Source of the DNA: Candidatus Aminicenantes bacterium
Lineage (GTDB): Bacteria; Acidobacteriota; Aminicenantia; Aminicenantales; UBA4085
Direction of reading: 5' to 3'
Assembly (NCBI GenBank): GCA_963848835.1
Contig: CAWKFB010000017.1
Coordinates: forward strand, 89,647-153,646
Length of the DNA: 64,000 bases
The position numbers and the translations under genes are program-made. Shown piece by piece: positions 3,885 to 56,485 of the stretch (positions within the stretch are counted from its first letter, which is position 1; the number at the start of each line of letters is the position of its first letter). The notes under the pieces were generated by a model. It was not told the DNA's origin. It did no database searches and saw nothing but the letters and a program-made list of their open reading frames with translations.

Positions 3885-3996
3885 CGTTTCCCTTCCTCTC
3901 GCCTTGAATGAACGGATGATATGGGGAAACCGGTATCCTGTCAATTCCGATCGATTCCATTGGTCAGAGGGCCGGTGATTCGGGTACAATCGCTCC

Positions 3997-10064: not shown

Positions 10065-11407
10065 TCAGACGGACTTTTCGATGATGTTGATGCCGATCTT
10101 CTCGAGCAGCGGATAGGGCAGCTCGCCCCCGATCATGATGAAGACGAAATCGTTCTCGATCTCAGCGCTGCGGTCGTCGGTCGACACGACCACGGATTTG
10201 GGCTTGATCTCCTTGACCGCGCTCTGGAAACGAACGTTGATCGTCTTCTGCTTGACGGCGGCGTCGATCTTTTCCCTGTTCCGCGCTTTGGCCAGAGGAA
10301 ATCCTTCCCCCCGGACGACGAGGGTGACCGGGCATCCCTGGCTGGCCAAGGCCAGCGCCGCCTCGAGGCTCGCATCCCCTCCTCCGACGATCGTGATGGA
10401 GCGGCCCCGGAATTCCTGGGCGTCCGACAACATGTAGAACACCTTGGCAAGGTCTTCTCCGGGGACCTTCAGCTTGCGGGGCTCGCCCCGCGTTCCCAAG
10501 GCCAGGATGATCTTATCGCAGGGAATTTCCCGCCCGCCGGCCGAAACGATGAAACGCTCCCCTTCTTTCTGACCGCTTCGAGCCTGGCCCCGGTGATGAT
10601 CGGGACCGCAGTCTTTTCCAGGATCCGGTCCCACACCTCAAGGAGCTTTTCCCGGGTCGTGTCGCCGACCCAGATCGGACCGACCAGGGGCATGTCCAAC
10701 GGCTCGGCCATGACGATCTTCCGTTTCGGAAAATTCTTGATCGTGTTGGCCGCGGCGTCCTTTTCGAGACACGTCGCCGGAAGGCCGAACTTCCGCGAGC
10801 TCAGGAAGGCCGAAAGGCCGGCCGGGCCCGCCCCGACGATCACGAGATGGGGCAAACGGGCGGGAAAGACGCCGCGCATGATGACGTTCAGGACCGCCCG
10901 GCCCTGATTGATCGATTCCTTGATCAGCCCCGCGCCGGCCAGCGTGCCGATGATGTAGATCCCGGGGACGTTGGTCTCGAAGTTCTCGTCGATCTGGGGG
11001 GCGCGGACCTTCAGCTTCTGACCGTATTCGATCAGCTGGTTGGCTCCGGTCGGACAGGCCTTTTCGCATTCGCCGCAGCCGTCGCAGAGGCGCGGGTCGA
11101 GAAGGGTCGACTTCCCGGAGATGATCACGAGCGTCTTGTTCTTCTTGCAGGTGAGCACGCACGTCCCGCAGCCGACGCAGACGCCCCGGTTGATGCTCGG
11201 GTACATCTTCCGGCCCGTGGGATGGCGGCTCTCGATCCGGCTGATATCCGCCTCCGACAGGCCGGACAGCGGGACGATCTGGTGGACCAGGAGCCTGGCT
11301 CTCCGGAGCTTCCGGATCTCCCAGCGGACGAAGGGGAGAAAGACGACGAGAAAGAGGAACGCTCCGATCAGGAAGAGAAGGACGCGATGGTCGGTCAGAA
11401 GATCCAT
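10065..11407 (-). CDS. Membrane-anchored 2x[4Fe-4S] ferredoxin domain fused to a thioredoxin-reductase-like FAD/NAD(P) oxidoreductase. One apparent frameshift near 10565-10575.
   Basis: ATG 11407 overlaps the upstream stop (TGATG). The product starts MDLLTDHRVLLFLIGAFLFLVVFLPFV (TM helix) followed by RWEIRKLRRAR. It contains CVGCGTCVLTC and CDGCGECEKACP, VIVGAGPAGLSAF (FAD GxGxxG) and ITIVGGGDASLEAALAL (NAD(P) GxGxxA). The frame switches from ORF 10469..12217 to ORF 10065..10634. Confidence 0.75.
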
Positions 11408-12217
11408 CAGTGCCCCATAGAGACCGTGACATAGACGTGGACGGCGAGGAGAAGGAACATCAGGACGACGAAGGGAATGTGGAAGAGATGCCAGAAATGG
11501 AGCAACTTCAGGGTTTTTTCGAGGAGCTGTTTCCTCCGCAGCAAGCCCTGGCGAGCCAGGATCAGCTTGAGGAGCTGCTTCCGGTCCCTGGCTTCGACGC
11601 TCCTCTCCGCTTTGAGGACTTTGTTCAGGCGGGCCCCGAACGCGCCGGGGCGGCAGGGCGCCGAGCCCTTCCCGGTCCGTCCCGGCCATCAGGTCCCAGA
11701 ACCGATGGGCGGGAGGAAGGAACTTCCGGATCTCGAAGGTCAGGCGGATCTCCTCGGCCTCGAGCTCGATCCGGCTGAGCTCCATCCCGGACAGGGAGCG
11801 GGGGATCATCCGGTAGATGTACCTCCCGACGACGCCGCTCGCGACGACGACGACCATCGCACCGAAGCAGAGGCCGACGAGGCCGCCGATCTTGAAGACC
11901 GCATGGAACAAGACGAGAGCGGGGCCGGCCAGGCCGAAGAAGATATGGACGTTCAGCCAAGCGTCCAGGTTTCCCCAACCGCGCATGAACCGCAGCCTCT
12001 TCCGCAGGGAGTAGGCGAGGAGGAGGATCATGAACAGGGCCCCGATGATCCCCAGCAGATGGCCCAGCGTTCCGCTTTGTCGCAGAAGCGGGTGGAGGGC
12101 GTGCCGGACCCTTTTCGCGGCCGGGGCCGTATAGTAGTCCCAGCCATAGACGCTCAGGCCGACCAGGCCGAGGAGGACGGCCGCGTAGGCGGCGGCGAAA
12201 AACGGCTTCGCCTTCAT
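11407..12217 (-). CDS. His-rich integral membrane protein of about 5 TM helices, possibly haem-b binding. One apparent frameshift near 11640-11665.
   Basis: The N-terminus of ORF 10469..12217 has TM helices with His residues (LGHLLGIIG, WLNVHIFFG, LVLFHAVF). After about 11650 the sensible reading moves to another frame: AFGARLNKVLKAERS...LLHFWHLFHIPFVVLMFLLLAVHVYVTVSMGH*. The stop TGA is at 11409..11407. Confidence 0.6.
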
Positions 12218-12230
12218 CGCCCCCGGCCGA

Positions 12231-15200
12231 TCATGGGTTCCCTCGAGGATGGCAGGAGAAGCAGTTCGCCGAGTTGTAGACGTACCCCGACCGGCCCCGA
12301 TGCTCCGAGTCCGTTGAGCTCCGCGTATGGCAGGTCAGGCAGGTGAAAACCCGGTAGTTCGCCGCGTCGGGATGGCAAGCCGTGCAGGCGTTTCCGGAAT
12401 GGCGGCCCGAAGAGATGGGAAAGGCGGTATGGTTGAACGTCCCCTGCGTCCAGGACGTGTCCGTGGCCCGATGGCAGGTCGAACAGGCCGTCGAAAATCC
12501 GGAGGCAACGTGGTTGGGATTCCGGGTTTGATCGTAGCTCGACCGGTGGCAGCCGTAGCAGTCGCGCGGCGTGCCCCGATAGACTCCGTTGATATGGCAG
12601 GCGGCGCAGGGCTGGGCGGCGTGGACGCCGACCAGGGCGAACGTCGAAGAGTGATTGAACGTTCCCTGAGTCCAGAGGCGTGTCCGTGGCCCGATGGCAG
12701 GTCTCGCAGACCGTCGAGAAGCCCGGAAGCGGCGTGGTTGGGATTCCGGGTCTGATCGTAATTCGTCCGGTGGCAGCCGTAGCAATCGCGGGGCGTGCCC
12801 TTGTAGATCCCGTTGACGTGACAGGCGGCGCAGGGCTGGGCGGCGTGGACGCCGACCAGGGCAAACGTCGCGGCGTGATTGATGCCCGGCCTGGGTCCAG
12901 AGCGTATCCGTGGGCCGATGGCAGGTGTCGCAGGCCGTCGAGAAGCCCGACGCGGCATGGTTGGGATTCTTGGTCTGATCGTAGCTCGACCGGTGGCAGC
13001 CGTAGCAGTCGCGCGGCGTGCCCCGATAGACTCCGTTGATATGGCAGGCGGCGCAAGGCTGGGCGGCGTGGAGGCCGACCAGGGCGTATGAGGTCGCGTG
13101 ATTGAATGACCCCTGGGTCCAGAGCGTATCCGTGGCCCGATGGCAGGTGTCGCAGGCCGTCGAGAATCCCGACGCGGCATGGTTGGGATTCTTGGTCTGA
13201 TCGTAGCTCGACCGGTGGCAGCCGTAGCAGTCGCGCGGCGTGCCCCGATAGACTCCGGTGATATGGCAGGCGGCGCAAGGCTGGGCGGCATGGACGCCGA
13301 CCAGGGCATATGAGGTCGCGTGATTGAATGACCCCTGGGTCCAGAGCGTATCCGTGGGCCGATGGCAGGCATCGCAAGCCGTCGAGAAGCCCGCGGCGGC
13401 GTGGCTGGGATTCTTGGTCTGATCGTAGCTCGACCGGTGGCAGCCGTAGCAGTCGCGCGGCGTGCCCCGATAGACTCCGGTGATATGGCAGGCGGCGCAA
13501 GGCTGGGCGGCATGGACGCCGACCAGGGCATATGAGGTCGCGTGATTGAATGACCCCTGGGTCCAGAGCGTATCCGTGGGCCGATGGCAGGCATCGCAAG
13601 CCGTCGAGAAGCCCGCGGCGGCGTGGCTGGGATTCTTGGTCTGATCGTAGCTCGACCGGTGGCAGCCGTAGCAGTCGCGTGAAGTCCCTTGATAAACCCC
13701 GGTTGCGTGGCAGGCGGCGCAGGGCTGGGCGGCGTGGACGCCGACCAGGGCGTACTTCGAGGCATGATTGAAGACGCCCCGGGCCCAGGACGGATCGGCG
13801 GCTTTGTGGCAGGTTTCGCACGAAGTCGGAAATCCCGCCGCGCCGTGAGCGGGATTCTGGGTCCGGTCGAAATCCGTCCGATGGCAGCCGATGCATGCGT
13901 TCGGGGTGCCCTTGTAGACGGAGTTCACGTGACACGCGCCGCACGCCTGCGCGGCGTGGACGCCGACGAGAGGATAGGCCGAGCCATGATTAAAGAATCC
14001 CCGGTCCCAGCCGGAGTCGGTCGGCTTATGGCAAACCTCGCAGACCGTCGGGAACCCCGCGGCCGCGTGCTCGGGCTGCTTGGTCCGCTCGTAGTCGGGC
14101 CGGTGGCAGCCGAAGCAATCCCGAGCCGTTCCCCGAAAGACGTTGTTCTTGTGGCAGGCGGCGCAGGCCTGGCCGGCGTGGGTCCCGACGAGCGGATAGC
14201 TCGCGTTGTGGTCGAACCTCCCCTGGGTGAAGGCGGCGTCGGCCGGATTGTGGCAGATCTGGCAGAGGGTCGGAAAGCCGGACGAGGCGTGCGGCGGATT
14301 CCGAGTCCCGGCGTAATCCTGACGGTGACAGGAAAAGCAATCCGAGGACGTACCGACGAAAGTCCCGCCCTTATGGCAGCTCGAACATCCGAGCGAGGCG
14401 TGGCGGCCGTTCAAGGCGAGGCCGGTTCGCGCGCCGTGGTCCCACTTAGCCCCCGTCCACGCGAGCGGCTTGTGGCATTCTTCGCACTGGGCTCCCAACC
14501 GGGTCCTGTAAGGATCGTCCTGACGCCGGATCCAGTGGCAGCTGTTACAGTCCTTGGGCGTCCCCTTGACCACTCCGTCTCGGTGGCACGAGGCGCAGGG
14601 AACGGAGATGTGCCGGCCTTCGAGCCGGTATTCGGTCTGCTGGTGGAAGGACACCGCGGTGCTGGTCCACGAGGCTGTTGTGTGGCAGGAGGCGCAGGCT
14701 TCCTTCAATGCCCCTTGATGCGGGTCCTTGTGGCAGGTCGAACAGGCTTGGGCGTCGGGCCGGAGAGCTCCCGGCGGCCGCGACCGCTTGAGCCGCGGGG
14801 TCTCGGCGGTGTGGCAGGCCGCGCAATCCACGGCCGCGTGGCGGCCCGTCAGGGGATATTCGGTTTTGGCGTGATCAGAAGCCCGGTGGCATCCGGAGCA
14901 TTTCGAAGCGGTAGGCTTGTAGCGGATCACAAGCCCGGGCCGGCCGGTTTCTCCGGCCGCCGCGCGGGGGTGGCATTTATCGCAGGATGTCGCCTCGTGA
15001 AAGACCTTGAGGGAAAAGGCGCTCTTTTCGTGAGAGAAGCCGGGGGCCGGCTTGAACCGGACGGCATCGTGACACGAGGCGCAGTTTGGTCCGAGCTGGC
15101 CGGCGTGCTCGTCCCGATGGCAGGAAGCGCAGGCGTTCGAGAGCGGACGATAACGGACGGCCGCGGCCGTCACGCCGCCGGGCGGAGGCGCCTCCTTCGT

Positions 15201-16466
15201 GTGGCATTTGCCGCAATTCAGGGCCGCGTGGGCTCCTTCCAGCCGGTAGGTGGAGTCCTTCTGATGATCGAATGCGGAATAAGCGCGGCCGAAACCCGCC
15301 GTCGTGTGGCAGGATTCGCAGGCCTTATTGAATTGACCAAGATGGATGTCTTTGTGGCAATCGAGGCAGGCGGTCCCGAGCGGGCGGTACCGGACGAGGT
15401 CAGGCCCCTCTTCCGCTTTATGGCACTTGGCGCAGGCCACCGAGGCGTGCTTTCCGGTCAACGGGTACCGTGAGCGTTGATGGTCGGTTTTCGCTTTTTT
15501 AAACGTCGTTTCGTCGTGGCAGGCGGCGCAGTCGGCCGCGAATTGGCCGCGGTGGGGATCGGCCGCGTGGCACGTCCGGCAGGTTTCGCCGGGGACCTTG
15601 TCGAGCTTCCCGTTCTTGTGGCACTGGGCGCACTTGAGCGCCGCGTGCTTGCCCTTCAAAGCGAACTTCGACTTGGCATGGCCGGGCGTGCCGGACTTCC
15701 AGGACGCGTCGTTGTGGCATTGGGCGCAGGTTTTTCCGAAGGAGGGCAGGTGAGGGTCCTTATGGCAGTCGGCGCAGGCGCCGAATTTCAGCCCTTTCCA
15801 CTTTTTCGCCGGATGGCACTTCAGGCAGGCGACGCTCCGGTGCGCTCCCTGGGGGCGATAAGCGGCCCGGGAATGATCGAAGTCCGCCTCTTTCAAGGGC
15901 CGGTCGACGGAATGGCAGACCGAGCAATCGCGGGGGCCGAACTGGCCTTTGTGCGGATCGTCGTGGCAGCCCGAGCAGCGCGTATCCTTGACCAGGTAGG
16001 AGACCGTCGTCTTCGTCGAAGGAGCGGTCCGGACGTTGTGGCACTTGAGGCACTCCCTGACGGTCGTGTGCTTCCCGGTCAAGGGCGCGCCGGTCTTGGA
16101 GTGGTCGAAGGTCCTGGGATTCCAGTCGATCAGCCCGAAGTCCGTCCCTTGATGATCGGGGTGGCAGGTCGCGCAGCCGCTCTTTTTATCCTGATGGAAT
16201 CCCCGGCCGGCGGCGATCCGGGCGGCCAGGTCTTTGTGGCAGGCCAGACATTTTTCCTCGACCGACTTGGTTCCGGGCGTATGGCACTTGCCGCAGCTCG
16301 TCAGGTCGGAGAGGTCGGAGTGGGCGCGGCTGAGCTTCCCGGGAGAAATGAGGAGGGCTGCTTCCTGGGCGGCCAACGGGGCTGCAGTCGCCCCAAAGAG
16401 CAAGAAGGCCAGGATTCCCGGCCAGATCGCTTGCCGCGCGGCGATATATCGCTTTTTCGTTTTCAT
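12231..16466 (-). CDS. Giant secreted multihaem c-type cytochrome (1411 aa as read), a polymer of c7-like modules
   Basis: It has a signal peptide (MKTKKRYIAARQAIWPGILAFLLFGATAAPLAAQ). I count 53 CXXCH motifs in the ORF as written, plus 3 more in a 71-codon out-of-frame stretch. The module F[DN]Hx5-6LxGxHx3-4CxxCH recurs throughout. Confidence 0.9.
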   Translation of the reverse strand: MKTKKRYIAARQAIWPGILAFLLFGATAAPLAAQEAALLISPGKLSRAHSDLSDLTSCGKCHTPGTKSVEEKCLACHKDLAARIAAGRGFHQDKKSGCATCHPDHQGTDFGLIDWNPRTFDHSKTGAPLTGKHTTVRECLKCHNVRTAPSTKTTVSYLVKDTRCSGCHDDPHKGQFGPRDCSVCHSVDRPLKEADFDHSRAAYRPQGAHRSVACLKCHPAKKWKGLKFGACADCHKDPHLPSFGKTCAQCHNDASWKSGTPGHAKSKFALKGKHAALKCAQCHKNGKLDKVPGETCRTCHAADPHRGQFAADCAACHDETTFKKAKTDHQRSRYPLTGKHASVACAKCHKAEEGPDLVRYRPLGTACLDCHKDIHLGQFNKACESCHTTAGFGRAYSAFDHQKDSTYRLEGAHAALNCGKCHTKEAPPPGGVTAAAVRYRPLSNACASCHRDEHAGQLGPNCASCHDAVRFKPAPGFSHEKSAFSLKVFHEATSCDKCHPRAAAGETGRPGLVIRYKPTASKCSGCHRASDHAKTEYPLTGRHAAVDCAACHTAETPRLKRSRPPGALRPDAQACSTCHKDPHQGALKEACASCHTTASWTSTAVSFHQQTEYRLEGRHISVPCASCHRDGVVKGTPKDCNSCHWIRRQDDPYRTRLGAQCEECHKPLAWTGAKWDHGARTGLALNGRHASLGCSSCHKGGTFVGTSSDCFSCHRQDYAGTRNPPHASSGFPTLCQICHNPADAAFTQGRFDHNASYPLVGTHAGQACAACHKNNVFRGTARDCFGCHRPDYERTKQPEHAAAGFPTVCEVCHKPTDSGWDRGFFNHGSAYPLVGVHAAQACGACHVNSVYKGTPNACIGCHRTDFDRTQNPAHGAAGFPTSCETCHKAADPSWARGVFNHASKYALVGVHAAQPCAACHATGVYQGTSRDCYGCHRSSYDQTKNPSHAAAGFSTACDACHRPTDTLWTQGSFNHATSYALVGVHAAQPCAACHITGVYRGTPRDCYGCHRSSYDQTKNPSHAAAGFSTACDACHRPTDTLWTQGSFNHATSYALVGVHAAQPCAACHITGVYRGTPRDCYGCHRSSYDQTKNPNHAASGFSTACDTCHRATDTLWTQGSFNHATSYALVGLHAAQPCAACHINGVYRGTPRDCYGCHRSSYDQTKNPNHAASGFSTACDTCHRPTDTLWTQAGHQSRRDVCPGRRPRRPALRRLSRQRDLQGHAPRLLRLPPDELRSDPESQPRRFRASRRSARPAIGPRTRLWTQGTFNHSSTFALVGVHAAQPCAACHINGVYRGTPRDCYGCHRSSYDQTRNPNHVASGFSTACSTCHRATDTSWTQGTFNHTAFPISSGRHSGNACTACHPDAANYRVFTCLTCHTRSSTDSEHRGRSGYVYNSANCFSCHPRGNP
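12512..14288 (-). repeat. Tandem coding repeats of 222 nt (74 codons), about 8-9 units. Each unit is a tri-haem module (CxxCH x3).
   Basis: The unit is AAGFSTACDACHRPTDTLWTQGSFNHATSYALVGVHAAQPCAACHITGVYRGTPRDCYGCHRSSYDQTKNPxH. By eye, nt ~13184-13457 recur identically at ~13406-13679 (offset 222). Flanking units are progressively more diverged. Confidence 0.9.
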
Positions 16467-18683: not shown

Positions 18684-21600
18684 ATGCATTCTCTCCTCAT
18701 CCGCCACGCGGCCGAAAACAACCTGAAGGGCGTCGATGTCGACATCCCCCACGGCCGGATGACCGTCGTCACCGGCGTATCCGGCTCGGGAAAATCCTCC
18801 CTCGTCTTCGACGTCATCTACCGCGAAGCCCGGCGCCGCTATCTCGAGACTTTCTCGTCCTACGCCCGCCAGTTCATGGGCAAGCTCCGTCGGCCCGACG
18901 TGGGCCTGGTCAGCGGCCTCTCCCCCGCCGTCGCCGTCTCCCAAAAGGCCGCCGCGGCCGGCCCCCGGTCCACGGTCGGAACGCTGACCGGGATCCACGA
19001 CGATCTCCGGCTCCTCTTCGCCCGCCTGGGAACCGCGCCCGAGGGGATCCGGCTCTCGCGGCGGATGTTCTCCTTCAACTCGGCCGAGGGGGCATGCCCC
19101 GCCTGCCGCGGGCTCGGCGTCGAGGACCGCATCGACCCCGATCTCCTCGTCTCCGATCCCGGCAAAACCCTCCGCCAGGGAGCGCTGTCCCTGACGACCC
19201 CGAACGGCTACATCATCTATTCCCAGGTCACCATCGAGGTGCTGGACGAGGTTTGCCGGGCCCATGGATTCTCGGTCGATATTCCCTGGCGCGAGCTGAC
19301 CGAAGCCCAGCGCGGGATCGTCCTCAACGGGAGCGGCCGCGTCCGCATCCGCTTCGGAAAGCATCCGCTCGAATCGCGGCTCCGCTGGAAAGGGATCACG
19401 GCCAAGCCGCGCGAAGAAGGATTCTACAAGGGCATCCTTCCGGTGATGGAGACGATCCTGAGGTCCAAGCGGAACGACAACATCCTCCGCTTCGCCCGGA
19501 CGCTCCCCTGCCGCGCCTGCGGCGGCCGCCGCCTCCGGCCCGAATCCCTCCGCGTGACCGTGGAGGACCGCTCCATCGCCGACCTCTCCGCGTTGAGCCT
19601 GGGCGATCTGGCCGCCCGCGTCCGGGCCATGGATTTCGGAACGCCGGCGGCCGATCGGGCCGCCGGAGAGGCCGTCCGCGCCTCCATTCTCGGCAAGACC
19701 GGCCTGCTCGAGCGCCTCGGCCTCGGCTATCTCCGGCTCGACCGGGCAGCGGACTCGCTTTCGGGGGGCGAGTCCCAGCGCATCCGCCTCACCGCTCAAG
19801 CCGGAAGCGGACTGCGGGGCATGCTCTACGTCCTCGACGAGCCGACCGCGGGGCTCCATCCCGCCGACACCGCCCGGCTCCTGGAGGTGCTGGGCGAGCT
19901 CCGCGACAACGGCAACACGGTCCTTGTCGTCGAGCACGACGAGGACGTGATGCGGGCGGCGGACCATCTGATCGACCTCGGCCCCGGACCGGGAGAGGAG
20001 GGCGGCAGGGTTCTGTATCAAGGCCCGGCGCGCGATCTCCTCAAGATCCCTCGCGGGTCGAGCCCGACCCGGGATTTTCTCGCCGGCGATAGGAAACCAG
20101 CGGCACATTCCCTGGGCCGGCCGGGAACGGGGCGCATCCTCGTCAGGGGGGCGCGCCTGCACAACCTGCGCGATTTGGAGGTCGAGTTCAGGCTCGGCGC
20201 CCTCAACGTAGTCACGGGTGTCTCGGGGGCGGGCAAAACAACGCTGGTCCGTCATGTTCTGGCCGAGCGGCTCCGGACAGGCCGATCCGGACCCGGTCCC
20301 GACGCCGACGGCGTCCTCGTCGAAGGGACCGTGGGACGGGTGATCGAGATCGACCGCTCTCCGATCGGCCGGACGCCGCGCTCCAACCCGGCAACCTATA
20401 CGAAGATCTCCGACCGGGTCCGCGACCTCTTCGCCGCGCTGCCCGAATCCCGGGACCGCGGCTTCGGGAAGGGCCGCTTTTCCTTCAATGTGACCGGCGG
20501 CCGGTGCGAAACCTGCCGTGGCGCCGGCCTCCTCCAGATCGGGATGCATTTCCTGGGCGACGTAGACGTCGTCTGCCCGGCCTGCGAAGGCCGCCGCTTC
20601 AATGACGCGACCCTCGCGGTGCGGGACCGCGGGAAGAGCATCCACGACGTCCTCGAAATGAGCGTCTCGGAAGCGGCCGCATTCTACCGCGACGCGGTCC
20701 GGCTCGCGGCCGACCTCGAGGTCCTAAAGCACCTCGGCCTGGGCTATCTCAAGCTGGGACAGGGTTCGACGACCCTTTCGGGCGGCGAAGCCCAGCGGAT
20801 CAAGCTGGCCTCCGAGCTGCGCCGGGCCGGATCGGCGCCCGCGCTCATCATCCTCGAGGAGCCGACGACCGGATTGCACCGGGCGGACATCGAACACCTT
20901 CTCGCCGCCCTCCAGGAGATCGTTTCCCGCGGCGGGACGATCATCGCCATCGAGCACCACCCCGACGTCATCCGCGCCGCCGACCATATCGTGGATCTCG
21001 GTCCGGGAAGCGGCGAAGACGGCGGCCGTCTCGTCGCCTGCGGAAGGCCGGACGCGATCGCGGCTTGCGCGGCCTCGGCGACGGGGCGCGCGCTCCGGGG
21101 GGAATTCGCGTCGGAAGCCCTCCGCGCGGCGGGGGTTCGGGGCCGTCCGGACGCCGAAGGACCGATCATCCTCGAAGGCGTTTCGACCCATAACCTCCGC
21201 GGCATCGACGTCCGCATCCCCTTCCGGAAATTCACGGCCGTCAGCGGGCCATCGGGCGGGGGCAAATCCTCGCTTGTCTTCGATACGCTGTACGCCGCAT
21301 CCCGGCAAAAGTACATCGAAAGCTTCTCCGCTTACGTGCGGGCGCTCATCGACAAGGGCGGACGGGCCGATTTCGCATCGGCCCGCGGATTGACCCCGCC
21401 GGTCGCGGTCGGCCGCGCCTCCTCCGCGTCCCATCCGCGTTCGACAGTCGGGACGATGACCGAGATCTACGACTATTACCGGCTGTTGTACGCGCGCGCG
21501 GGCGTCCCCCCTCCCGAGCGGACCGGCCGGACGCTCTCGGCGTCGATGTTCTCCTTCAACCATGATCAGGGCGCCTGCCCCGGATGCAAGGGCCTCGGGA

Positions 21601-23588
21601 CGATGACCGTCGCCGACCCGGACCGGCTGATCACGGACCCGAAGAAGTCCCTCCTGGCCGGAGCGATGGACGGGACGAAAACCGGCCGGTTCTACGGCGA
21701 TCCGGACGGCCAGCACGCCGCCGCCCTGCAGGCGGCCGGGGCCGCGGCCGGATTCGATTTTTCCAGGGCTTACGCGGACCTGACCGCGGAGGAACGGTCC
21801 GCCGCCCTCGACGGCACCGGAGATCGCGTCTACGATATCGTCTGGTCCTATCGGCGGGGAAAGCGGGCGGGCGATTTCGCCTTCCGCGGCCCTTGGAAAG
21901 GCTTCGCCGCCCTGGTCGCGGAAGAATACGAACGCAAGCACGCCGATCGCCGCGGCGAAGCGATGCGGGTTCTGATGAAGGACGGACCCTGCCCCCGCTG
22001 CGGCGGCCGGCGCCTCAATCCCGCCGCTCTCGCGGTCACGTATCGCGGGCTCGGGATCGCCGATCTCTCCGCCCTGACCGTGGCGCAAAGCCTCGCCTTT
22101 TTTGCCGGCGGAGGAAGTCCCGCCGCGCCGATGGACGCCCGGACCGCGGCCGTGACCGCCGCCGTCCAGGGAGAGATCATCCGGCGTCTCGGGCTCATCC
22201 GCGATGTCGGCCTGGATTATCTCAGCCTCGACCGCGCTTCCGGCGGCCTTTCGGGTGGAGAAGCTCAACGCCTCCGGCTGGCCGGGCTCCTCGGGGTCAG
22301 GCTCACCGGCGTCACCTTCGTCCTGGACGAGCCGACGCTCGGGCTCCATCCCCGGGACACGGCGAAGCTCGTCGGCATGCTCCGCGAGCTCACGGCGGAG
22401 GGCAACACGGTCGTCGCCGTCGAGCACGACCTCGAGGTCATCCGGGCCGCCGACCACGTCCTCGACCTGGGACCCGGCGCGGGCCGGAACGGAGGGAGGA
22501 TCGTTGCCGAAGGCGCTCCCGCCGAAATCGAGCGGTCTTCGGACTCCGTGACCGGGCCTTATCTCGCCCGCCGCGCGCGGACACCCGTCCCGCTTCAAGG
22601 AATCTCCGGGCCTCCGATCGAAATCAAGGGCGCCCGGGCGAACAATCTCCGCTCCGTCGACGTCTCGATCCCGACGGGCGTGCTGACGGCCGTGACCGGA
22701 GTCTCCGGGAGCGGCAAGTCCAGCCTCGTCTTCGACGTGCTCCTGGCTTCGGCCCAAGCCGGGCGGGCGGCTTCCTGCGCCGACATCCGCGGGCTCGAGC
22801 GATTCGAGAGGATCATTCCGGTCGGGAGCGAAGCCCCTCCCGAGAGCGCGGCGAGCATCCCCCTGACCTATCTTGGCCTTTTCGACGCGATTCGGGCTCT
22901 GTTCGCGGATTCACCGGACGCGCGGGCGCGGGGTCTCGGCAAATCCCATTTTTCCTTTCTCACCCGCGAGGGACGCTGCGAAGTCTGCGGCGGAACCGGC
23001 CGCGAAACGGTGAGCCTGGACCACCTGGCCGACGTCTCGGTCCCCTGCGAAGCCTGCGGCGGGAACCGCTTCCATCCCAGGGTTCTCGAGGTCCGCGTCT
23101 CGGGGCGGACGATCGCCGATATCCTCCGGATGACGGCGGCGGAGGCGGCGACAGCCCTATCAGGCTTGCCGAAGGTCGCCGCAAGCCTTTCCCTTCTCTC
23201 CGGGATCGGCCTGGATTATCTCGAGCTCGGCCAATCTCTTGATACGCTTTCGGCGGGCGAGCGGCAGCGACTGAAGCTCGCCGCCGAGCTGCTCCATCCG
23301 CCGTCCGGGAAGGCCCTCTATCTCTTCGACGAGCCGACGAGCGGACTTCACCCAACGGATGTGGAGCGGCTTTTACGGCTCTTCGCGAAGCTCCTCGCCG
23401 CGGGTCACACGATCGTTGCCGTGGAGCACGATCTCGAGCTCATCTCCCGGGCCGGCCATGTCATCGACCTGGGTCCGGAGGGAGGCGACAAAGGCGGGAA
23501 GCTCGTCATCCAAGGGCCGCCGGAAGCCGTCACGGCATGCCCGTCCTCTTATATGGGCGCAGCCCTCAAAACGTATTGGGGCCGCTGA
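18684..23588 (+). CDS. Tandem-duplicated UvrA-like ABC ATPase with four nucleotide-binding domains
   Basis: 1634-aa ORF. It has four Walker A motifs (GVSGSGKSS, GVSGAGKTT, GPSGGGKSS, GVSGSGKSS) and four ABC signatures (LSGGESQR, LSGGEAQR x2, LSAGERQR). CxxC zinc-module pairs occur in each half (e.g. CPACRGLG, CRACGGRR, CETCRGAG, CPACEGRR). Confidence 0.9.
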   Translation: MHSLLIRHAAENNLKGVDVDIPHGRMTVVTGVSGSGKSSLVFDVIYREARRRYLETFSSYARQFMGKLRRPDVGLVSGLSPAVAVSQKAAAAGPRSTVGTLTGIHDDLRLLFARLGTAPEGIRLSRRMFSFNSAEGACPACRGLGVEDRIDPDLLVSDPGKTLRQGALSLTTPNGYIIYSQVTIEVLDEVCRAHGFSVDIPWRELTEAQRGIVLNGSGRVRIRFGKHPLESRLRWKGITAKPREEGFYKGILPVMETILRSKRNDNILRFARTLPCRACGGRRLRPESLRVTVEDRSIADLSALSLGDLAARVRAMDFGTPAADRAAGEAVRASILGKTGLLERLGLGYLRLDRAADSLSGGESQRIRLTAQAGSGLRGMLYVLDEPTAGLHPADTARLLEVLGELRDNGNTVLVVEHDEDVMRAADHLIDLGPGPGEEGGRVLYQGPARDLLKIPRGSSPTRDFLAGDRKPAAHSLGRPGTGRILVRGARLHNLRDLEVEFRLGALNVVTGVSGAGKTTLVRHVLAERLRTGRSGPGPDADGVLVEGTVGRVIEIDRSPIGRTPRSNPATYTKISDRVRDLFAALPESRDRGFGKGRFSFNVTGGRCETCRGAGLLQIGMHFLGDVDVVCPACEGRRFNDATLAVRDRGKSIHDVLEMSVSEAAAFYRDAVRLAADLEVLKHLGLGYLKLGQGSTTLSGGEAQRIKLASELRRAGSAPALIILEEPTTGLHRADIEHLLAALQEIVSRGGTIIAIEHHPDVIRAADHIVDLGPGSGEDGGRLVACGRPDAIAACAASATGRALRGEFASEALRAAGVRGRPDAEGPIILEGVSTHNLRGIDVRIPFRKFTAVSGPSGGGKSSLVFDTLYAASRQKYIESFSAYVRALIDKGGRADFASARGLTPPVAVGRASSASHPRSTVGTMTEIYDYYRLLYARAGVPPPERTGRTLSASMFSFNHDQGACPGCKGLGTMTVADPDRLITDPKKSLLAGAMDGTKTGRFYGDPDGQHAAALQAAGAAAGFDFSRAYADLTAEERSAALDGTGDRVYDIVWSYRRGKRAGDFAFRGPWKGFAALVAEEYERKHADRRGEAMRVLMKDGPCPRCGGRRLNPAALAVTYRGLGIADLSALTVAQSLAFFAGGGSPAAPMDARTAAVTAAVQGEIIRRLGLIRDVGLDYLSLDRASGGLSGGEAQRLRLAGLLGVRLTGVTFVLDEPTLGLHPRDTAKLVGMLRELTAEGNTVVAVEHDLEVIRAADHVLDLGPGAGRNGGRIVAEGAPAEIERSSDSVTGPYLARRARTPVPLQGISGPPIEIKGARANNLRSVDVSIPTGVLTAVTGVSGSGKSSLVFDVLLASAQAGRAASCADIRGLERFERIIPVGSEAPPESAASIPLTYLGLFDAIRALFADSPDARARGLGKSHFSFLTREGRCEVCGGTGRETVSLDHLADVSVPCEACGGNRFHPRVLEVRVSGRTIADILRMTAAEAATALSGLPKVAASLSLLSGIGLDYLELGQSLDTLSAGERQRLKLAAELLHPPSGKALYLFDEPTSGLHPTDVERLLRLFAKLLAAGHTIVAVEHDLELISRAGHVIDLGPEGGDKGGKLVIQGPPEAVTACPSSYMGAALKTYWGR

Positions 23589-23631: not shown

Positions 23632-24021
23632 TCAGAGCTTGGCTTTGATCCCGTCCAGGGCTTTCTGGGGGGACATGGCCCCGAACTGGAACTCGAGCGC
23701 GTCCCCGGATTTCAGCTTGAGAAGAAGCGCCTTCTGGAGAAAGCCCTTTTTTACGATCGCGGCATCCCCGATATCGCCGAACGGGATGGCCGCGTGATCC
23801 GCCAGCTTCTCAAAAGGCTGGGCCGGATTGATGACCCGGTAAGCCGCGGCGATCTTGGCCGCGGCGTTCTTCTCGAGAGAAATTCCCGCCTGAAAACGGA
23901 CATATCTGTCCGTGACATAGATCTTCCCCGTGATCTTCTCCGAGTTCGGGCTGGGATCGCCCATGAAGACCGACCAGGATCCGACGATTTCTTCGCCTTG
24001 TTCCAGCCAGGGTTCAGCCAT
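23632..24021 (-). CDS. Hypothetical 129-aa protein; I suspect a PH/GRAM-like fold
   Basis: An intact ORF in a gap with no competing gene. The pattern ITGKIYVTDRYVRFQ resembles bacterial PH/GRAM-type domains. I cannot assign a family without a search. Confidence 0.45.
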   Translation of the reverse strand: MAEPWLEQGEEIVGSWSVFMGDPSPNSEKITGKIYVTDRYVRFQAGISLEKNAAAKIAAAYRVINPAQPFEKLADHAAIPFGDIGDAAIVKKGFLQKALLLKLKSGDALEFQFGAMSPQKALDGIKAKL

Positions 24022-54828: not shown

Positions 54829-54931
54829 GACTTCTCCAGCGTGTAAAGCCGGTAACCTTTTTCCCTCTGTCGGTGTATTATGGATGAAGGGTTCGGCATG
54901 CCCTTATCGTTCGCACGGAGGAGACAGGAGA

Positions 54932-56440
54932 ATGAAAAAAGCGCTGCTCGTCCTCGCGATCCTCGCCTTCGCGGTCTCGGCCTCGGCCCAGAGCTGGTTC
55001 AAGGGCTCCCTCGACGAGGCCGTCGCCCAGGCCAAGACGGAGAAGAAGCTCGTCCTTCTCGATTTCTACTCAGGGGGTTGAGGGGCCTGCAAACTGCTGG
55101 GTCAGCAGTTCTACTCCGCTCCCAAGTTCCAGGATTTCCTCGGCCGGAACTTCGTTATGTTCCGGGCCGACAGCGATGAGGCGGCCGGGACCGCCGTTTT
55201 CACCAAGTTCAAGATCAACGCCACGCCGACCGTAATGTTTCTCGACGGGAACGGCGACGAGGTCGATTGGACCGTCGGCTACGGCCCCCCTCCGGAGAAA
55301 TTCCAGGACAAGCTGGCCAAGATCGTGGCCGGAGGCGAGACGTTCAAGGACCTGAGCGCGGCCCGGGCCAAGAGCCCCAAGGACGCGGCGGTCGCCTTCA
55401 AGCTGGCCCGCAAATGGGCCGACCGCTTCGACAACGAAAAGACGATGGCCCTTTACAAGGAGGTCATCGCCCTCGATCCCGGCGGCCGGGCCGGGAGCTA
55501 CACGAACGACCGGACGAAGGTGACGGTCCCCTACACCGAGTTCGCCGCCCTGCAGGTCGCGGCCCAGGGACTCTCGGCGAACCCGCCGACCGTCAAGCCC
55601 GTCCGCGATTTCCTGGCCAAGTACCCGGAAAGCCCTCTCACCAAGGACGCCTACGGGCGCATGTCCGAATACTACGGCCGGACGGCTCCCAAGGAGGAAG
55701 CCGGGCCGTTCTTCGAGGAGTACGCGGCCCGGTTTCCCGAGGACCCGGCCATCATCGAACAGTGGCTGGCGCGCATCATCCGCGACAAAGGCCCCTACGA
55801 AAAAGGCGTCGAGCTCTCCGAAAAGATCCAGAAAGCGCGACGCGGACCGTCGCTCCCCGACCCCTACCAGAACGTGGCCGAGCTCTACCTGGCTAAAGGC
55901 GACAAGGAGAAAGCCGACGAGGTCTACGGCAAGAGCTTCATGGAAAACCAAGTGTATTACCTGGCTTACAACCTGATCAACTACGCCAATTTCTGGGCCG
56001 GAAAGGACGCCAACAAGGAAAGCGCCCTGGCCATGGCCGAGAAGGCCCTGGCGATGCAGCCGGACAACTCCTATTTCCAGCAGCTGGTGGCCGGAGTCTA
56101 CCTCAAGCTGGGACTCGAGGACAAAGCCATGGGCCTCTTCGGCCCCGCCTATGCGGCCAAGAATAACGGCGATCCGGACGCCCTGTCGAGCTATGCTTCC
56201 TTCTGGAGCGGCCAGGGGAAGAATCTCGAGGGGGCGCAGGCTGCGGCCCGGAGGGCTGTCGAGCTCAAGCCGGCTCAATATTACGGCTGGGTGACCCTGA
56301 GCGGCGTCCTGGCGAAGACGAAGAATCCGGCCGAGGCCGTCAAAGCCATGGAGAAGGCCGTCGAGCTCGCGCCCGAGTCCATCAAGGAATACTACAAGAA
56401 GTCGCTGGAAAAGCTGAAAGCGGAAGCCGGAAAGAAATAG
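54932..56440 (+). CDS. Secreted thioredoxin-fold + TPR protein with in-frame UGA (55079-55081) read as selenocysteine; UxxC redox motif
   Basis: ORF 54668..55081 (from ATG 54932, with GGAG upstream) and ORF 55157..56440 are in the same frame. The only interruption between them is TGA 55079. Read-through gives MKKALLVLAILAFAVSASA...KKLVLLDFYSGG-U-GACKLLGQQF...ATPTVMFLDGNGDEV. The UGA sits at the first Cys position of the WCxxC motif. Confidence 0.7.
55092..55110 (+). promoter_or_regulatory. Candidate bacterial SECIS hairpin
   Basis: AACUGCUG (55092-55099), GGU (55100-55102), CAGCAGUU (55103-55110). This is a perfect 8-bp stem that begins at the 11th nt after the UGA and has a G-containing apical loop. 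Confidence 0.6.
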
Positions 56441-56463
56441 GGAGGCCGGACCTGCCGGCCTCC
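56441..56463. terminator. Perfect 9-bp GC hairpin between convergent genes; likely bidirectional terminator
   Basis: GGAGGCCGG, ACCTG, CCGGCCTCC lie immediately after the TAG of 54932..56440 and 23 nt from the stop of the tricorn gene. There is no clear U-tract. Confidence 0.45.
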
Positions 56464-56485
56464 CTCTCGAAGCGTCCTGAACGGT

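What the first reader, a model, noticed from the sequence alone, without database searches (positions are those of the whole stretch)
54932..56440. Probable selenoprotein hidden as two ORFs: a secreted UxxC thioredoxin-fold/TPR protein with a SECIS-like hairpin
**What the sequence shows.**
- The ORF track ends one ORF at TGA 55079-55081 and starts the next at 55157. Both are in the same frame (78 nt apart), and no other stop lies between them.
- Reading through gives ...AKTEKKLVLLDFYSGG[TGA]GACKLLGQQFYSAPKFQDFLGRNFVMFRADSD...TPTVMFLDGNGDEV.

**Why this points to selenocysteine.**
- This is the layout of thioredoxin-like (DsbD-gamma/Thioredoxin_7-type) domains, whose active site is DFxAxWCxxCK.
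- The TGA falls exactly on the first Cys, giving U-G-A-C.
- Ten nt after the TGA a perfect 8-bp stem (55092-55099/55103-55110) closes a GGU loop. This matches the spacing and G-containing apical loop expected of bacterial SECIS elements.
- Global TGA recoding is excluded, because TGA terminates neighbouring genes (e.g. stops at 768-770 and 8463-8465).

**Why it is worth a second look.**
- The protein has a signal peptide and a roughly 400-aa TPR-like C-terminal region. That makes it an exported Sec-containing oxidoreductase with a protein-interaction scaffold.
- This architecture would be missed by standard gene callers.
Basis: partly seen in the sequence, partly recalled or inferred. Interest (0 to 1): 0.75.

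Follow-up and report, generated by a model that had tools for sequence, protein, structure and literature searches.

The report
Hidden secreted thioredoxin-TPR selenoprotein gene
Gene callers split this into a 49-codon stub and a "TPR protein", but it is one gene for a secreted thioredoxin-like enzyme whose active-site residue is selenocysteine; the UGA that encodes it, and the RNA hairpin behind it, are conserved in all 90 related genes examined, so it is an uncatalogued family of a well-known kind.

Summary
ATG 54932 to TAG 56440 is one reading frame with a single in-frame TGA (55079-55081). That TGA sits on the first Cys of the CxxC motif of a Thioredoxin_7/Thioredoxin_2 domain that spans it. 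I recovered 90 homologous gene copies: the window, two metagenome contigs and 78 loci from 69 species-representative genomes, nearly all Candidatus Aminicenantes, 43-75% identical. The codon is TGA in 90 of 90. A hairpin follows in the same register every time: a 7-bp core with no broken pair, three covarying pairs and a G-N-Y loop. Two of the compensatory changes cost an amino-acid change. In three relatives tRNA-Sec lies 3-4 kb downstream of the gene, next to selB; a fourth has selB at the locus edge. A genuine Cys (CQGC) homologue exists. TGA ends 22 of 30 Pfam-supported genes in the window, so there is no global recoding. All public protein entries for the family are truncated, or carry "W" from code-4 calls. 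The product is a signal-peptide-bearing U-G-A-C thioredoxin-fold oxidoreductase fused to about 370 aa of TPR superhelix. This architecture is absent from a 2026 catalogue of 119 prokaryotic selenoprotein families. Not tested: Sec machinery in this genome, and the biochemical role.

The parts
54917..54923 (+). Shine-Dalgarno-like GGAGGAG, 8 nt upstream of the start codon
   Evidence: Read directly from the sequence. Inferred; not tested.
54932..56440 (+). Complete selenoprotein gene: 502 codons plus TAG, with one Sec-UGA
   Evidence: Single frame with one internal TGA. The MKK start is conserved in 86 of 87 homologous copies. Pfam domains span the TGA.
54932..54991 (+). Signal peptide MKKALLVLAILAFAVSASA|Q (Sec/SPI type; A-S-A cleavage motif)
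   Evidence: Read from the sequence. The n/h/c-region pattern is conserved across the family alignment. AlphaFold2 gives low confidence for the equivalent N-terminus of P0030. No signal-peptide predictor was available, so this is inferred.
55001..55315 (+). Thioredoxin-fold domain of the DsbD-gamma / Thioredoxin_7 / Thioredoxin_2 type
   Evidence: Pfam E 2.8e-13 and 3.5e-13, both above the gathering scores. PDB phmmer best hit is 2kuc_A at E 4.6e-13; DsbD-gamma chains score about 2e-7.
55079..55081 (+). Sec codon UGA (residue U50) of the U-G-A-C motif
   Evidence: TGA in 90 of 90 homologous copies. It aligns with the first Cys of CxxC. In the AlphaFold2 model of homologue P0030, the equivalent residue 62 sits directly before helix 63-73 and after strand 52-58.
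55088..55090 (+). Resolving Cys53 (TGC), the only Cys in the 502-residue product
   Evidence: Invariant in 89 of 89 aligned copies. Cys count.
55092..55110 (+). SECIS hairpin: 8-bp stem in the window (7-bp conserved core 55093-55099 / 55103-55109) and loop GGU 55100-55102. It is built from the codons K-L-L-G-Q-Q-F.
   Evidence: Folds in the window sequence. RNAalifold predicts the same 7 pairs with none broken in 90 sequences. Compensatory changes: CG to UA, GC to CG and AU to CG; covariation 0.179 against 0.075 in shuffles, 0 of 500 shuffles as high. Codon entropy of the two stem Leu codons is 0.54 and 0.51 bits, against 1.18-2.14 bits at 22 other conserved Leu columns.
55223..55231 (+). T-P-T, the presumed cis-Pro loop of the thioredoxin active site
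   Evidence: Aligns with Y-P-T of 2kuc and of PDI. 'ATPT' is in the family consensus. The cis conformation is inferred.
55319..56437 (+). C-terminal all-helical TPR superhelix, about 370 aa
   Evidence: Pfam TPR_8, TPR_19, TPR_14 and TPR_2 above cutoff. The AlphaFold2 model of P0030 is helical except for one short beta-hairpin, mean pLDDT 91.4. Foldseek matches only generic TPR superhelices such as OGT and LbcA.
56439..56465 (.). GC-rich 11-bp hairpin just after the stop codon, between convergent genes (terminator-like)
   Evidence: The terminator scan calls it on the minus strand: 11 pairs, 9 of them GC. Function is inferred.

Best explanation
Window 54932-56440 is a single gene for a 502-residue exported selenoprotein.

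Decoding.
- The ribosome reaches UGA 55079. The mRNA hairpin at 55092-55110 acts as a bacterial SECIS: a 7-bp conserved core and a G-N-Y triloop, starting 10-11 nt after the UGA.
- The SECIS recruits SelB-GTP carrying Sec-tRNA(Sec), and selenocysteine is inserted instead of termination.
- The hairpin is made from the codons for K-L-L-G-Q-Q-F. The start of the active-site helix is therefore constrained at both the RNA and the protein level.

Product.
- A cleavable signal peptide sends the protein across the inner membrane.
- The mature protein has a DsbD-gamma/Thioredoxin_7-type thioredoxin fold. Its only redox centre is U50-G-A-C53, a selenol/thiol to selenenylsulfide couple.
- This is followed by about 370 aa of TPR superhelix.

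Shown here: the single ORF, the conserved UGA, the covarying hairpin, the thioredoxin fold with U at the CxxC nucleophile position, Cys homologues, and selB plus tRNA-Sec beside the gene in relatives.

Inferred:
- Actual Sec insertion in this organism.
- Export.
- The biochemical role. My best guess (about 0.45) is an extracytoplasmic thiol-disulfide reductase or isomerase. The Sec would attack disulfides or sulfenates of client proteins held by the TPR domain, as a soluble analogue of DsbD-gamma. One subclade has a stand-alone DsbD-alpha-like gene directly downstream, which fits this.
For: One frame, one TGA.

The Thioredoxin_2 and Thioredoxin_7 domains span the TGA. The TGA is the first Cys of CxxC in 2kuc, PDI and DsbD-gamma.

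Conservation of the TGA.
- It is TGA in 90 of 90 copies from 81 sources, down to 43% identity.
- The four 'full-length' database homologues that show W at this column actually have TGA in their DNA. Two were checked directly.

The hairpin.
- 7 pairs, none broken in 90 sequences.
- Compensatory CG to UA (10-11 sequences), GC to CG (10; this forces Q to E) and AU to CG (2; this forces F to V).
- The loop is always G-N-Y.
- Synonymous variation is suppressed in the stem codons.

Coding on both sides.
- Purifying selection holds on both sides of the TGA, and the internal Met is not conserved.
- The coding GC3 signature flanks only this TGA in the window, apart from one antisense site.

Sec machinery in relatives.
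- selB scores 372 bits on TIGR00475 in L047.
- tRNA-Sec is called by ARAGORN in L032, L047 and L078, and confirmed by Rfam RF01852 in L032 and L047.
- It lies 3-4 kb downstream of the homologous gene in all three. A selB fragment sits at the edge of L041.

Cys form. A true homologue, P0133 (CQGC), has a degenerate hairpin.

TGA is the ordinary stop of 22 of 30 Pfam-supported genes here.

Structure. In the AlphaFold2 model of a 49%-identical homologue (pLDDT 91.4), the U-equivalent residue sits directly before the helix that follows strand beta-1.

Neighbour. A DsbD_N gene (PF11412, 38 bits) lies directly downstream in six relatives.

The Sec insertion mechanism itself is established knowledge, summarised in PMC1794560.
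Against: - No selA, selB, selD or tRNA-Sec lies in the 64-kb window. The rest of the source genome could not be reached.
- The hairpin alone is not thermodynamically unusual (z = -0.65). Its 3-nt loop is at the small end for known bacterial SECIS elements.
- No Rfam family matches it.
- Only one Cys-form family member was found, which is unusually few for a selenoprotein family.
- There is no conserved gene neighbourhood around the window copy. The DsbD_N neighbour occurs in only 6 of 78 loci, so the proposed biochemical role rests on domain homology.
- There are no experimental data of any kind.
Confidence: 0.88

Rival explanations
1. The TGA is a real stop. The locus encodes a 49-residue secreted peptide and, separately, a TPR protein that starts at ATG 55157, as public annotation has it.
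For: Gene callers produce exactly this split. TGA is the commonest stop codon in the window.
Against: - The thioredoxin fold would be cut in two at its active site.
- The 25 codons between the TGA and ATG 55157 are under purifying selection. That Met is Leu in four of the five relatives compared.
- Downstream 'starts' differ between relatives.
- The TGA and the hairpin are conserved in 90 of 90 copies, with covariation.
Confidence: 0.02
2. The UGA is read through but not as selenocysteine. Possible routes are near-cognate or suppressor decoding as Trp, Cys or Gly, or a lineage-specific code change.
For: Some public pipelines translated it as W using code 4. Sec was not measured.
Against: - TGA terminates 22 of 30 Pfam-supported genes, some aligned to the last profile position, for example monomeric IDH at 734/734.
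- The recoded site is the redox nucleophile of a CxxC motif, and a Cys homologue exists.
- A position-specific covarying hairpin is what SelB needs and what general suppression does not need.
- selB and tRNA-Sec lie beside the gene in relatives.
Confidence: 0.03
3. The family is a true selenoprotein family, but the window's copy is a silent relic in a genome that has lost the Sec-decoding trait.
For: No Sec machinery lies within the 64 kb. One paralogue in a relative (L082) has TCA instead of TGA and is fragmented, so copies can decay.
Against: - The window copy is intact: start, signal peptide, perfect 8-bp hairpin, full-length frame and no frameshift.
- It shows purifying selection against relatives on both sides of the TGA.
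- A 64-kb sample of a genome expected to be about 4 Mb (from the related complete chromosomes) would usually miss the three or four sel genes.
Confidence: 0.05
4. Functional alternative. The protein is not a DsbD-gamma-like reductase but an extracytoplasmic chaperedoxin in the manner of CnoX/YbbN (Trx domain plus TPR holdase). It would protect client cysteines by forming mixed selenenylsulfides.
For: CnoX has the same two-module architecture, Trx then TPR (PMC10998233, PMC8129009). There is a weak sub-threshold hit to TPR_20 at residues 137-179 (E 0.082); from memory, that model covers the YbbN C-terminal TPR region. Some relatives carry PF14561 (TPR_20) in their precomputed Pfam lists.
Against: - No sequence match to any solved YbbN/CnoX chain. 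Foldseek finds only generic TPR superhelices.
- CnoX is cytoplasmic and works with GroEL, whereas this protein has a signal peptide.
- Its TPR region is about twice as long as that of CnoX (from memory).
Confidence: 0.2
5. Functional alternative. The protein is a cytochrome c maturation thioreductase that combines a CcmG/ResA-like Trx module with a CcmI/CycH-like TPR apocytochrome chaperone.
For: There is a weak hit to PF23914 TPR_CcmH_CycH (25.3 bits, cutoff 42). The genome encodes very large multihaem cytochromes, for example a 1411-aa protein at 12231-16466.
Against: - The hit is below the Pfam threshold.
- No ccm or res genes lie next to any copy examined.
- Tandem expansion to two or three copies per locus is not expected for a housekeeping maturation factor.
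Confidence: 0.1

Closest known systems
Sec-containing 'thiol:disulfide interchange protein' family (PF13098, UxxC; Kryukov & Gladyshev 2004; listed in PMC13188914 Table 1 and PMC1794560 Table 1)
   Same: Thioredoxin_2-type fold above the Pfam threshold. UxxC motif with Sec at the first position. The SECIS lies directly downstream, inside the coding sequence. A redox role is presumed.
   Different: - The known family is rare: 3 sequences, in Geobacter species, in the 2006 census. It is not listed with a TPR domain.
- The present family carries a 370-aa TPR superhelix, is found essentially in Aminicenantes, is tandemly expanded, and is Sec in 90 of 90 copies.
- Orthology with the listed representative (WP_011366075.1) could not be tested, because that sequence was not retrievable here.
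DsbD gamma domain and 2kuc-type Thioredoxin_7 proteins (Cys forms)
   Same: These are the best sequence relatives of the Trx module (2kuc_A E 4.6e-13; DsbD-gamma about 2e-7). They share the DF-x-x-x-W-C-x-x-C-K layout and an extracytoplasmic location. Cys-containing Trx_7+TPR proteins with WCGWC or WCGPC exist in other organisms (P0164, P0216).
   Different: - Sec replaces the nucleophilic Cys, and Gly (or Thr) replaces the preceding Trp.
- The protein is not fused to a DsbD beta membrane domain. The NCBIfam DsbD model scores 40-44 bits against a cutoff of 330.
CnoX/YbbN chaperedoxins (Trx domain + TPR domain)
   Same: The same two-module logic: a thioredoxin fold followed by a TPR client-binding domain (PMC10998233, PMC8129009).
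   Different: CnoX is cytoplasmic, uses Cys or SQHC, and has a shorter TPR. There is no detectable sequence relationship.
Trx7/PDZ domain selenoprotein (NF041199) and UGSC-containing selenoprotein (NF041046)
   Same: Trx7/PDZ is also a Thioredoxin_7-type selenoprotein with an added interaction domain. The UGSC family shares the U-G-S-C tetrapeptide seen in many members of the present family.
   Different: NF041199 has CxxU, not UxxC, and scores only 18.9 bits against a cutoff of 300. NF041046 gives no hit at all.
Canonical bacterial SECIS (E. coli fdhF type; bSECISearch consensus)
   Same: A hairpin starting 10-11 nt after the UGA, with a small apical loop that holds a conserved G (PMC1088965, PMC1794560). 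It is embedded in the coding sequence.
   Different: A very short, bulge-free 7-8-bp stem with a 3-nt loop. SelB binding was not tested.

Membership tests
Bacterial selenoprotein gene (SelB/SECIS-dependent UGA recoding) | In-frame UGA inside a conserved coding region, with conservation on both sides | tested here: met
   One TGA in the frame. TGA in 90 of 90 homologous copies. pN/pS is below 1 on both sides. Coding GC3 on both sides.
Bacterial selenoprotein gene (SelB/SECIS-dependent UGA recoding) | Stem-loop immediately downstream of the UGA, with G in a small apical loop, supported by covariation | tested here: met
   7-bp core with no broken pair in 90 sequences. Three pairs show compensatory changes. 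The loop is G-N-Y in every copy.
Bacterial selenoprotein gene (SelB/SECIS-dependent UGA recoding) | Homologues with Cys at the Sec column | tested here: met
   P0133 has CQGC and its DNA translates in table 11. Distant relatives have WCGPC or WCGWC.
Bacterial selenoprotein gene (SelB/SECIS-dependent UGA recoding) | selA, selB, selD and tRNA-Sec present in the same genome | not testable with these tools
   None in the 64-kb window. Walking along the contig failed. In relatives, selB plus tRNA-Sec lie next to the homologous gene (L032, L047, L078; selB fragment in L041).
Bacterial selenoprotein gene (SelB/SECIS-dependent UGA recoding) | Selenium demonstrated in the polypeptide | not testable with these tools
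   Needs 75Se labelling or mass spectrometry.
Thioredoxin-fold thiol-disulfide oxidoreductase (Pfam Thioredoxin_7 / Thioredoxin_2) | Domain match above the curated threshold | tested here: met
   PF13098 scores 50.5 bits and PF13899 49.9 bits, both against a cutoff of 27.
Thioredoxin-fold thiol-disulfide oxidoreductase (Pfam Thioredoxin_7 / Thioredoxin_2) | C/UxxC directly before helix alpha-1, after strand beta-1, plus a cis-Pro loop | tested here: met
   AlphaFold2 model of homologue P0030: U-equivalent residue 62 lies between strand 52-58 and helix 63-73, pLDDT above 84. T-P-T aligns with Y-P-T of 2kuc and PDI. The cis geometry itself is inferred.
Thioredoxin-fold thiol-disulfide oxidoreductase (Pfam Thioredoxin_7 / Thioredoxin_2) | Redox activity | not testable with these tools
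   Needs a biochemical assay.
[quoted passage not shown] | PF13098 domain with a UxxC motif | tested here: met
   Family definition from PMC13188914 Table 1.
[quoted passage not shown] | Orthology and shared architecture with the Geobacter representative | not tested
   The representative sequence was not retrievable. The catalogue lists no TPR-bearing selenoprotein: 'TPR' and 'tetratricopeptide' each occur 0 times in the review.
DsbD (NF001419) / TsoB (NF045694) | Full-length model score above the cutoff | tested here: not met
   44 bits against 330, and 42 bits against 805. Only the gamma-like domain matches.
Trx7/PDZ selenoprotein (NF041199) | Model score above the cutoff; CxxU motif | tested here: not met
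   18.9 bits against 300. The motif here is UxxC.
UGSC-containing selenoprotein (NF041046) | Model match | tested here: not met
   No hit even at E up to 10.
CnoX/YbbN chaperedoxin | Sequence or structural similarity to YbbN; cytoplasmic location | tested here: not met
   No YbbN chain among the PDB sequence hits shown or the top Foldseek hits. A signal peptide is present. TPR_20 scores only E 0.082.

The most novel reading that the evidence does not exclude
This would be an uncatalogued, lineage-wide selenoprotein family: exported Trx-TPR proteins that are essentially always Sec-dependent (90 of 90 copies) and tandemly expanded in Aminicenantes. On this reading they act as soluble, Sec-powered analogues of DsbD-gamma, or as extracytoplasmic chaperedoxins, and in one subclade they are encoded in a block with a stand-alone DsbD-alpha-like protein, selB and tRNA-Sec. 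That would make Aminicenantes a phylum with a substantial, so far unreported, envelope selenoproteome. It would also give a clean natural case of a SECIS dictating the amino-acid sequence (LL-x-QQ) at the start of a catalytic helix.
Probability: 0.4. Interest if true: 0.6.

Novelty: new variant of a known kind. Interest (0 to 1): 0.5.

Why it matters
**Annotation.** Every public protein entry found for this family is wrong. Entries are either truncated to a "tetratricopeptide repeat protein" lacking its catalytic half, or carry Trp at the Sec site because a short contig was called with genetic code 4. More than a hundred entries from at least 69 species are affected.

**Selenium biology.**
- The family is missing from the 119-family catalogue of 2026.
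- It belongs to a phylum for which I found no paper that mentions selenoproteins.
- It shows near-exclusive Sec use and tandem duplication. Both are unusual for a thioredoxin-fold family, where Cys forms normally dominate.

**RNA/protein co-constraint.** Q-to-E and F-to-V substitutions accompany the synonymous or neighbouring changes that keep the SECIS stem paired. This makes a compact example of an RNA structure shaping an enzyme's active-site helix.

**Physiology.** A secreted Sec-based oxidoreductase with a large client-binding scaffold implies that these anaerobes depend on selenium for envelope redox homeostasis. This could be tested in peat and sediment metaproteomes.

Tried and rejected
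- **Single-sequence folding.** The 52-nt segment after the TGA is not more stable than shuffles (z = -0.65), so I rejected it as evidence on its own.
- **Rfam and ARAGORN on the window.** Nothing found.
- **Exhaustive representative search.**
  - I used the 85 residues after the TGA instead.
- **Walking beyond the window to look for sel genes.**
  - Two edge proteins were not on record.
  - The look-up for P0001 returned only a 1.8-kb Logan contig without DNA.
- **Other selenoprotein genes in the window.**
  - The scan for TGAs with coding signal on both sides returned only the finding itself and one antisense site.
  - The split Fer4/pyridine-nucleotide oxidoreductase gene at 10.0-12.2 kb looked like a possible HdrA-type selenoprotein. 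It is a frameshift, not an in-frame TGA.
- **Conserved neighbourhood.**
  - ORF clustering over all loci was swamped by spurious GC-rich antisense ORFs.
  - The window's neighbours (DinB, tricorn-like protease, TPM, MFS) are not syntenic in relatives.
- **Function from the fold.** Foldseek and PDB sequence searches of the C-terminal region gave only generic TPR matches, and no CnoX/YbbN.
- **The 'Ser' variant P0121.** It is a true TCA codon in a fragmented tandem paralogue. It is not evidence for a third decoding.
- **Literature.** There are no papers combining Aminicenantes with selenoprotein, and only one unrelated paper with selenocysteine. No selenoproteome paper mentions tetratricopeptide.
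Full report
**1. The observation**

The + strand from ATG 54932 to TAG 56438-56440 is one frame of 502 sense codons with a single internal stop, TGA 55079-55081. The mechanical ORF list ends one ORF at that TGA and begins the next at ATG 55157, 78 nt further in the same frame.

Nucleotides 55092-55099 (AACTGCTG) pair perfectly with 55103-55110 (CAGCAGTT) around a GGT loop. The stem starts 10 nt after the TGA.

**2. Is it more than chance?**

- TGA is an ordinary stop in this genome. It ends 22 of 30 Pfam-supported ORFs, including the genes ending at 768-770 and 8463-8465. It also ends a monomeric isocitrate dehydrogenase gene that aligns to the last position of its profile.
- Among all TGAs in six frames, only 55079 (GC3 0.91 upstream, 0.84 downstream) and one antisense site inside a kinase gene are flanked for 45 codons on both sides by the GC3-high, GC2-low coding signature.
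- Perfect hairpins of 8 bp or more start at about 0.05% of positions. Only 3 of 1,538 TGA triplets have one within 5-20 nt with G early in the loop, and two of those three share one hairpin at 23.8 kb.
- The 52-nt segment after the TGA is not more stable than shuffled sequence (z = -0.65). The single sequence is suggestive, not decisive.

**3. What the read-through product is**

With Cys placed at the TGA, Pfam finds Thioredoxin_2 (residues 34-128, E 2.8e-13) and Thioredoxin_7 (24-105, E 3.5e-13). Both are above their gathering scores and both span the TGA. TPR_8, TPR_19, TPR_14 and TPR_2 hit in the C-terminal half.

Against solved structures, the best match is the Bacteroides "putative disulphide-isomerase" 2kuc (E 4.6e-13), followed by PDI domains and DsbD-gamma. 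In these alignments the TGA column is the first Cys of WCGPC or WCGHC.

Other features of the product:
- It has only one Cys, C53, so the motif is U50-G-A-C53.
- T-P-T at residues 98-100 aligns with the Y-P-T of 2kuc and PDI, which from general knowledge of the fold is the cis-Pro loop.
- The N-terminus MKKALLVLAILAFAVSASA|Q reads as a Sec-type signal peptide. This is an inference; no predictor was available.

An AlphaFold2 model of a 49%-identical full-length homologue (P0030, with a 53-sequence alignment) has mean pLDDT 91.4. It places the U-equivalent residue 62 between strand 52-58 and helix 63-73. From residue 133 on, the chain is helical except for one short beta-hairpin. Foldseek matches that part only to generic TPR superhelices such as OGT and LbcA.

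**4. Relatives**

A protein search returned 296 homologues. Almost all are 351-452 aa and cover only 70-89% of the query. They lack the N-terminus and are named "tetratricopeptide repeat protein"; the source names that give a taxon read Acidobacteriota or Aminicenantes.

Four entries looked full-length and carried W at the critical column. I fetched the DNA of two of them. The codon is TGA, and the tool reports that the gene does not translate to the deposited protein under table 11. These are code-4 calls on short contigs.

A scan of one genome per GTDB species gave 115 relatives. The best 78 loci were kept. They come from 69 assemblies, mostly labelled Candidatus Aminicenantes, and are 43-75% identical to the query.

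A motif scan of all sources found 90 gene copies, including tandem arrays of two or three. Every one has TGA at this column: none has Cys and none has any other codon.

Evidence against an independent downstream gene:
- The MKK start is conserved in 86 of 87 aligned copies.
- Against five relatives, pN/pS is 0.21-0.39 for the 29 codons before the TGA.
- pN/pS is 0.19-0.86 for the 25 codons between the TGA and ATG 55157.
- That Met is Leu in four of the five relatives.

An exhaustive search with the 85 residues after the TGA found one genuine Cys form of the family, P0133 (CQGC; its DNA translates under table 11). It also found more distant Cys-containing Trx+TPR and tandem-Trx proteins with WCGPC or WCGWC.

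**5. The hairpin is a conserved, covarying RNA element**

In all 90 copies a hairpin sits in exactly the same register. RNAalifold independently predicts a 7-bp stem (alignment columns 15-21 with 25-31). No pair is broken in any sequence, and three pairs show double changes.

Counted on distinct sequences:
- CG to UA: 10 sequences.
- GC to CG: 10 sequences.
- AU to CG: 2 sequences.
- AU to GU: 4 sequences.
- The covariation score is 0.179 against 0.075 in shuffles (0 of 500 as high). All slid controls are below 0.05.

The GC-to-CG change pairs a synonymous Leu change (CTG to CTC) with a non-synonymous Gln-to-Glu change (CAG to GAG). The AU-to-CG change turns Phe into Val. In these cases the protein yields to the RNA.

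The loop is always G-N-Y: GGU, GUU, GAU, GUC or GGC.

Codon entropy at the two stem Leu codons is 0.54 and 0.51 bits. At 22 other conserved Leu columns of the same genes it is 1.18-2.14 bits. The stem uses CTG, although CTC is the commonest Leu codon at most of the other Leu columns shown.

In the one Cys-form homologue the corresponding sequence (CTC CTG AGC CGG CAG) has an internal mismatch and no leading G in the loop. It is not predicted to fold. This resembles the "remnant SECIS" described for Cys forms derived from selenoproteins (PMC1794560).

The position (10-11 nt after the UGA) and the small G-containing loop match the described features of bacterial SECIS elements (PMC1088965, PMC1794560).

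**6. Sec machinery**

The window has no tRNA gene and no Rfam hit. About 40 ORFs scanned with Pfam include no SelA, SelB or SelD. I could not reach the rest of the source genome, so the machinery could not be checked for this organism.

In relatives the link is direct:
- ARAGORN finds tRNA-Sec (anticodon TCA) 3-4 kb downstream of the homologous gene in L032, L047 (chromosome CP070750.1) and L078.
- Rfam RF01852 confirms it in L032 and L047, at 72 bits against a gathering score of 47.
- The 645-aa ORF just upstream of the tRNA in L047 is SelB (TIGR00475, 372 bits, cutoff 242).
- tblastn finds SelB orthologues in L078, L032 and, cut by the locus end, L041.

The gene order in L047 is: selenoprotein, DsbD_N-like protein, MarR, selB, tRNA-Sec, glutamate dehydrogenase.

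**7. Mechanism**

Shown: one ORF, a conserved UGA at the CxxC nucleophile, a covarying hairpin at SECIS distance, Cys homologues, and Sec machinery in the clade.

From the established bacterial pathway, SelB-GTP carrying Sec-tRNA(Sec) is recruited by the SECIS (PMC1794560). It follows that UGA 55079 is decoded as selenocysteine.

Inferred: the protein is exported, the signal peptide is cleaved, and U50/C53 cycle between selenol/thiol and selenenylsulfide.

The role is the weakest link.
- The Trx module is most like DsbD-gamma and 2kuc-type Thioredoxin_7 proteins.
- In six relatives a stand-alone DsbD_N (alpha-domain-like) gene lies directly downstream on the same strand; it scores PF11412 at 38 bits in L047 and was found by tblastn in the other five.
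- I therefore favour (about 0.45) a reductive, DsbD-gamma-like thiol-disulfide reductase or isomerase whose TPR domain holds clients.
- A CnoX-like extracytoplasmic chaperedoxin (about 0.2) and a cytochrome c maturation thioreductase (about 0.1) remain open. Neither has more than sub-threshold domain hints.
- The window copy is monocistronic, between a divergent DinB-type polymerase gene and a convergent tricorn-like S41 protease gene. An 11-bp GC-rich hairpin follows the stop codon. Its neighbours are not conserved in relatives.

**8. Comparison with what is known**

A 2026 review lists 119 prokaryotic selenoprotein families (PMC13188914). The nearest entries are:
[quoted passage not shown] - "UGSC-containing protein" (NF041046).

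The review never mentions TPR. NCBIfam gives no model above its cutoff. DsbD scores 44 against 330, TsoB 42 against 805, and Trx7/PDZ 18.9 against 300. The UGSC model gives no hit.

I found no paper that mentions both Aminicenantes and selenoproteins. No selenoproteome paper mentions tetratricopeptide.

By domain and motif the protein fits the broad class of Sec-containing thioredoxin-fold oxidoreductases. By architecture, lineage and Sec exclusivity it is an uncatalogued family. I rate it a new variant of a known kind.

**9. Verdict**

- Confidence that this is a single selenoprotein gene with a functional SECIS is about 0.88.
- The remaining doubt is mainly that the Sec machinery of this particular genome was not seen and that nothing has been measured.
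- Interest is moderate (0.5). The mechanism is canonical and new Trx-like selenoproteins are not surprising.
- What raises it: the family is large, apparently always Sec, tandemly expanded, exported, fused to a big TPR scaffold, mis-annotated in every entry examined, and sits in a phylum with no reported selenoproteome.

Noticed in passing
window 10065-12217 (- strand), junction near 10640-10700: A 4Fe-4S ferredoxin plus pyridine-nucleotide-disulphide oxidoreductase gene is split between two reading frames. The N-terminal Rossmann motif is in the frame of ORF 10469-12217 and the rest of the Pyr_redox domain is in ORF 10065-10634. This is a frameshift (assembly indel or pseudogene), not an in-frame TGA.
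   Followed up: partly
window 3997-5671 (+ strand): An ABC-F-type ATPase also appears split. ORFs 3997-5607 and 5162-5671 overlap in different frames and both hit ABC_tran; the second has much higher GC3 (0.90). This may be a second frameshift in the window, which hints at indel errors in the assembly.
   Followed up: no
window 12231-16466 (- strand): A 1411-aa multihaem cytochrome with Cytochrome_C7 and c3 repeats and an MtrC/MtrF domain II/IV. This suggests extracellular electron transfer capacity.
   Followed up: no
window 18684-23588 (+ strand): An unusually long (1634 aa) UvrA-like protein with the UvrA DNA-binding domain and several ABC ATPase modules.
   Followed up: no
window 768-4079 (-) and 5757-8465 (+): Two large Ser/Thr protein kinases with C-terminal TPR regions flank the ABC-F gene.
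   Followed up: no
L047 7530-8102; also L078, L034, L037, L045, L080: A stand-alone DsbD N-terminal (alpha-domain-like) protein (PF11412, 38 bits in L047; found by tblastn in the others) is encoded directly downstream of the selenoprotein gene in six relatives. In L047 and L078 it is followed by MarR, selB and tRNA-Sec. L032 has MarR, selB and tRNA-Sec but no DsbD_N hit.
   Followed up: partly
L009, L010, L017, L022, L058, L059, L060, L082: The selenoprotein gene occurs as tandem arrays of two or three paralogues, each with its own TGA and hairpin. Several genomes also have copies at separate loci, for example PLMN01 (L003 and L017) and OY970261 (L005 and L079).
   Followed up: partly
L082 3118 (ENA contig_14953): The middle copy of a three-gene tandem array has TCA (Ser) instead of TGA. 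It keeps the hairpin but is broken into three short called genes. It is a decaying paralogue or an assembly error.
   Followed up: partly
L001 657, L002 968 (proteins P0101, P0113; also P0030, P0110): Public protein collections hold 'full-length' versions of this family with Trp at the Sec site, because short contigs were called with genetic code 4. A Sec/Cys-pair search that trusts these entries would miss the family.
   Followed up: yes
window 23839-23861 (+ strand coordinates): A perfect 8-bp GC-only inverted repeat, GCCGCGGC-N7-GCCGCGGC, lies inside a minus-strand ORF (23632-24021) that has no Pfam hit. It was the only other hairpin found near a TGA by the control scan.
   Followed up: no
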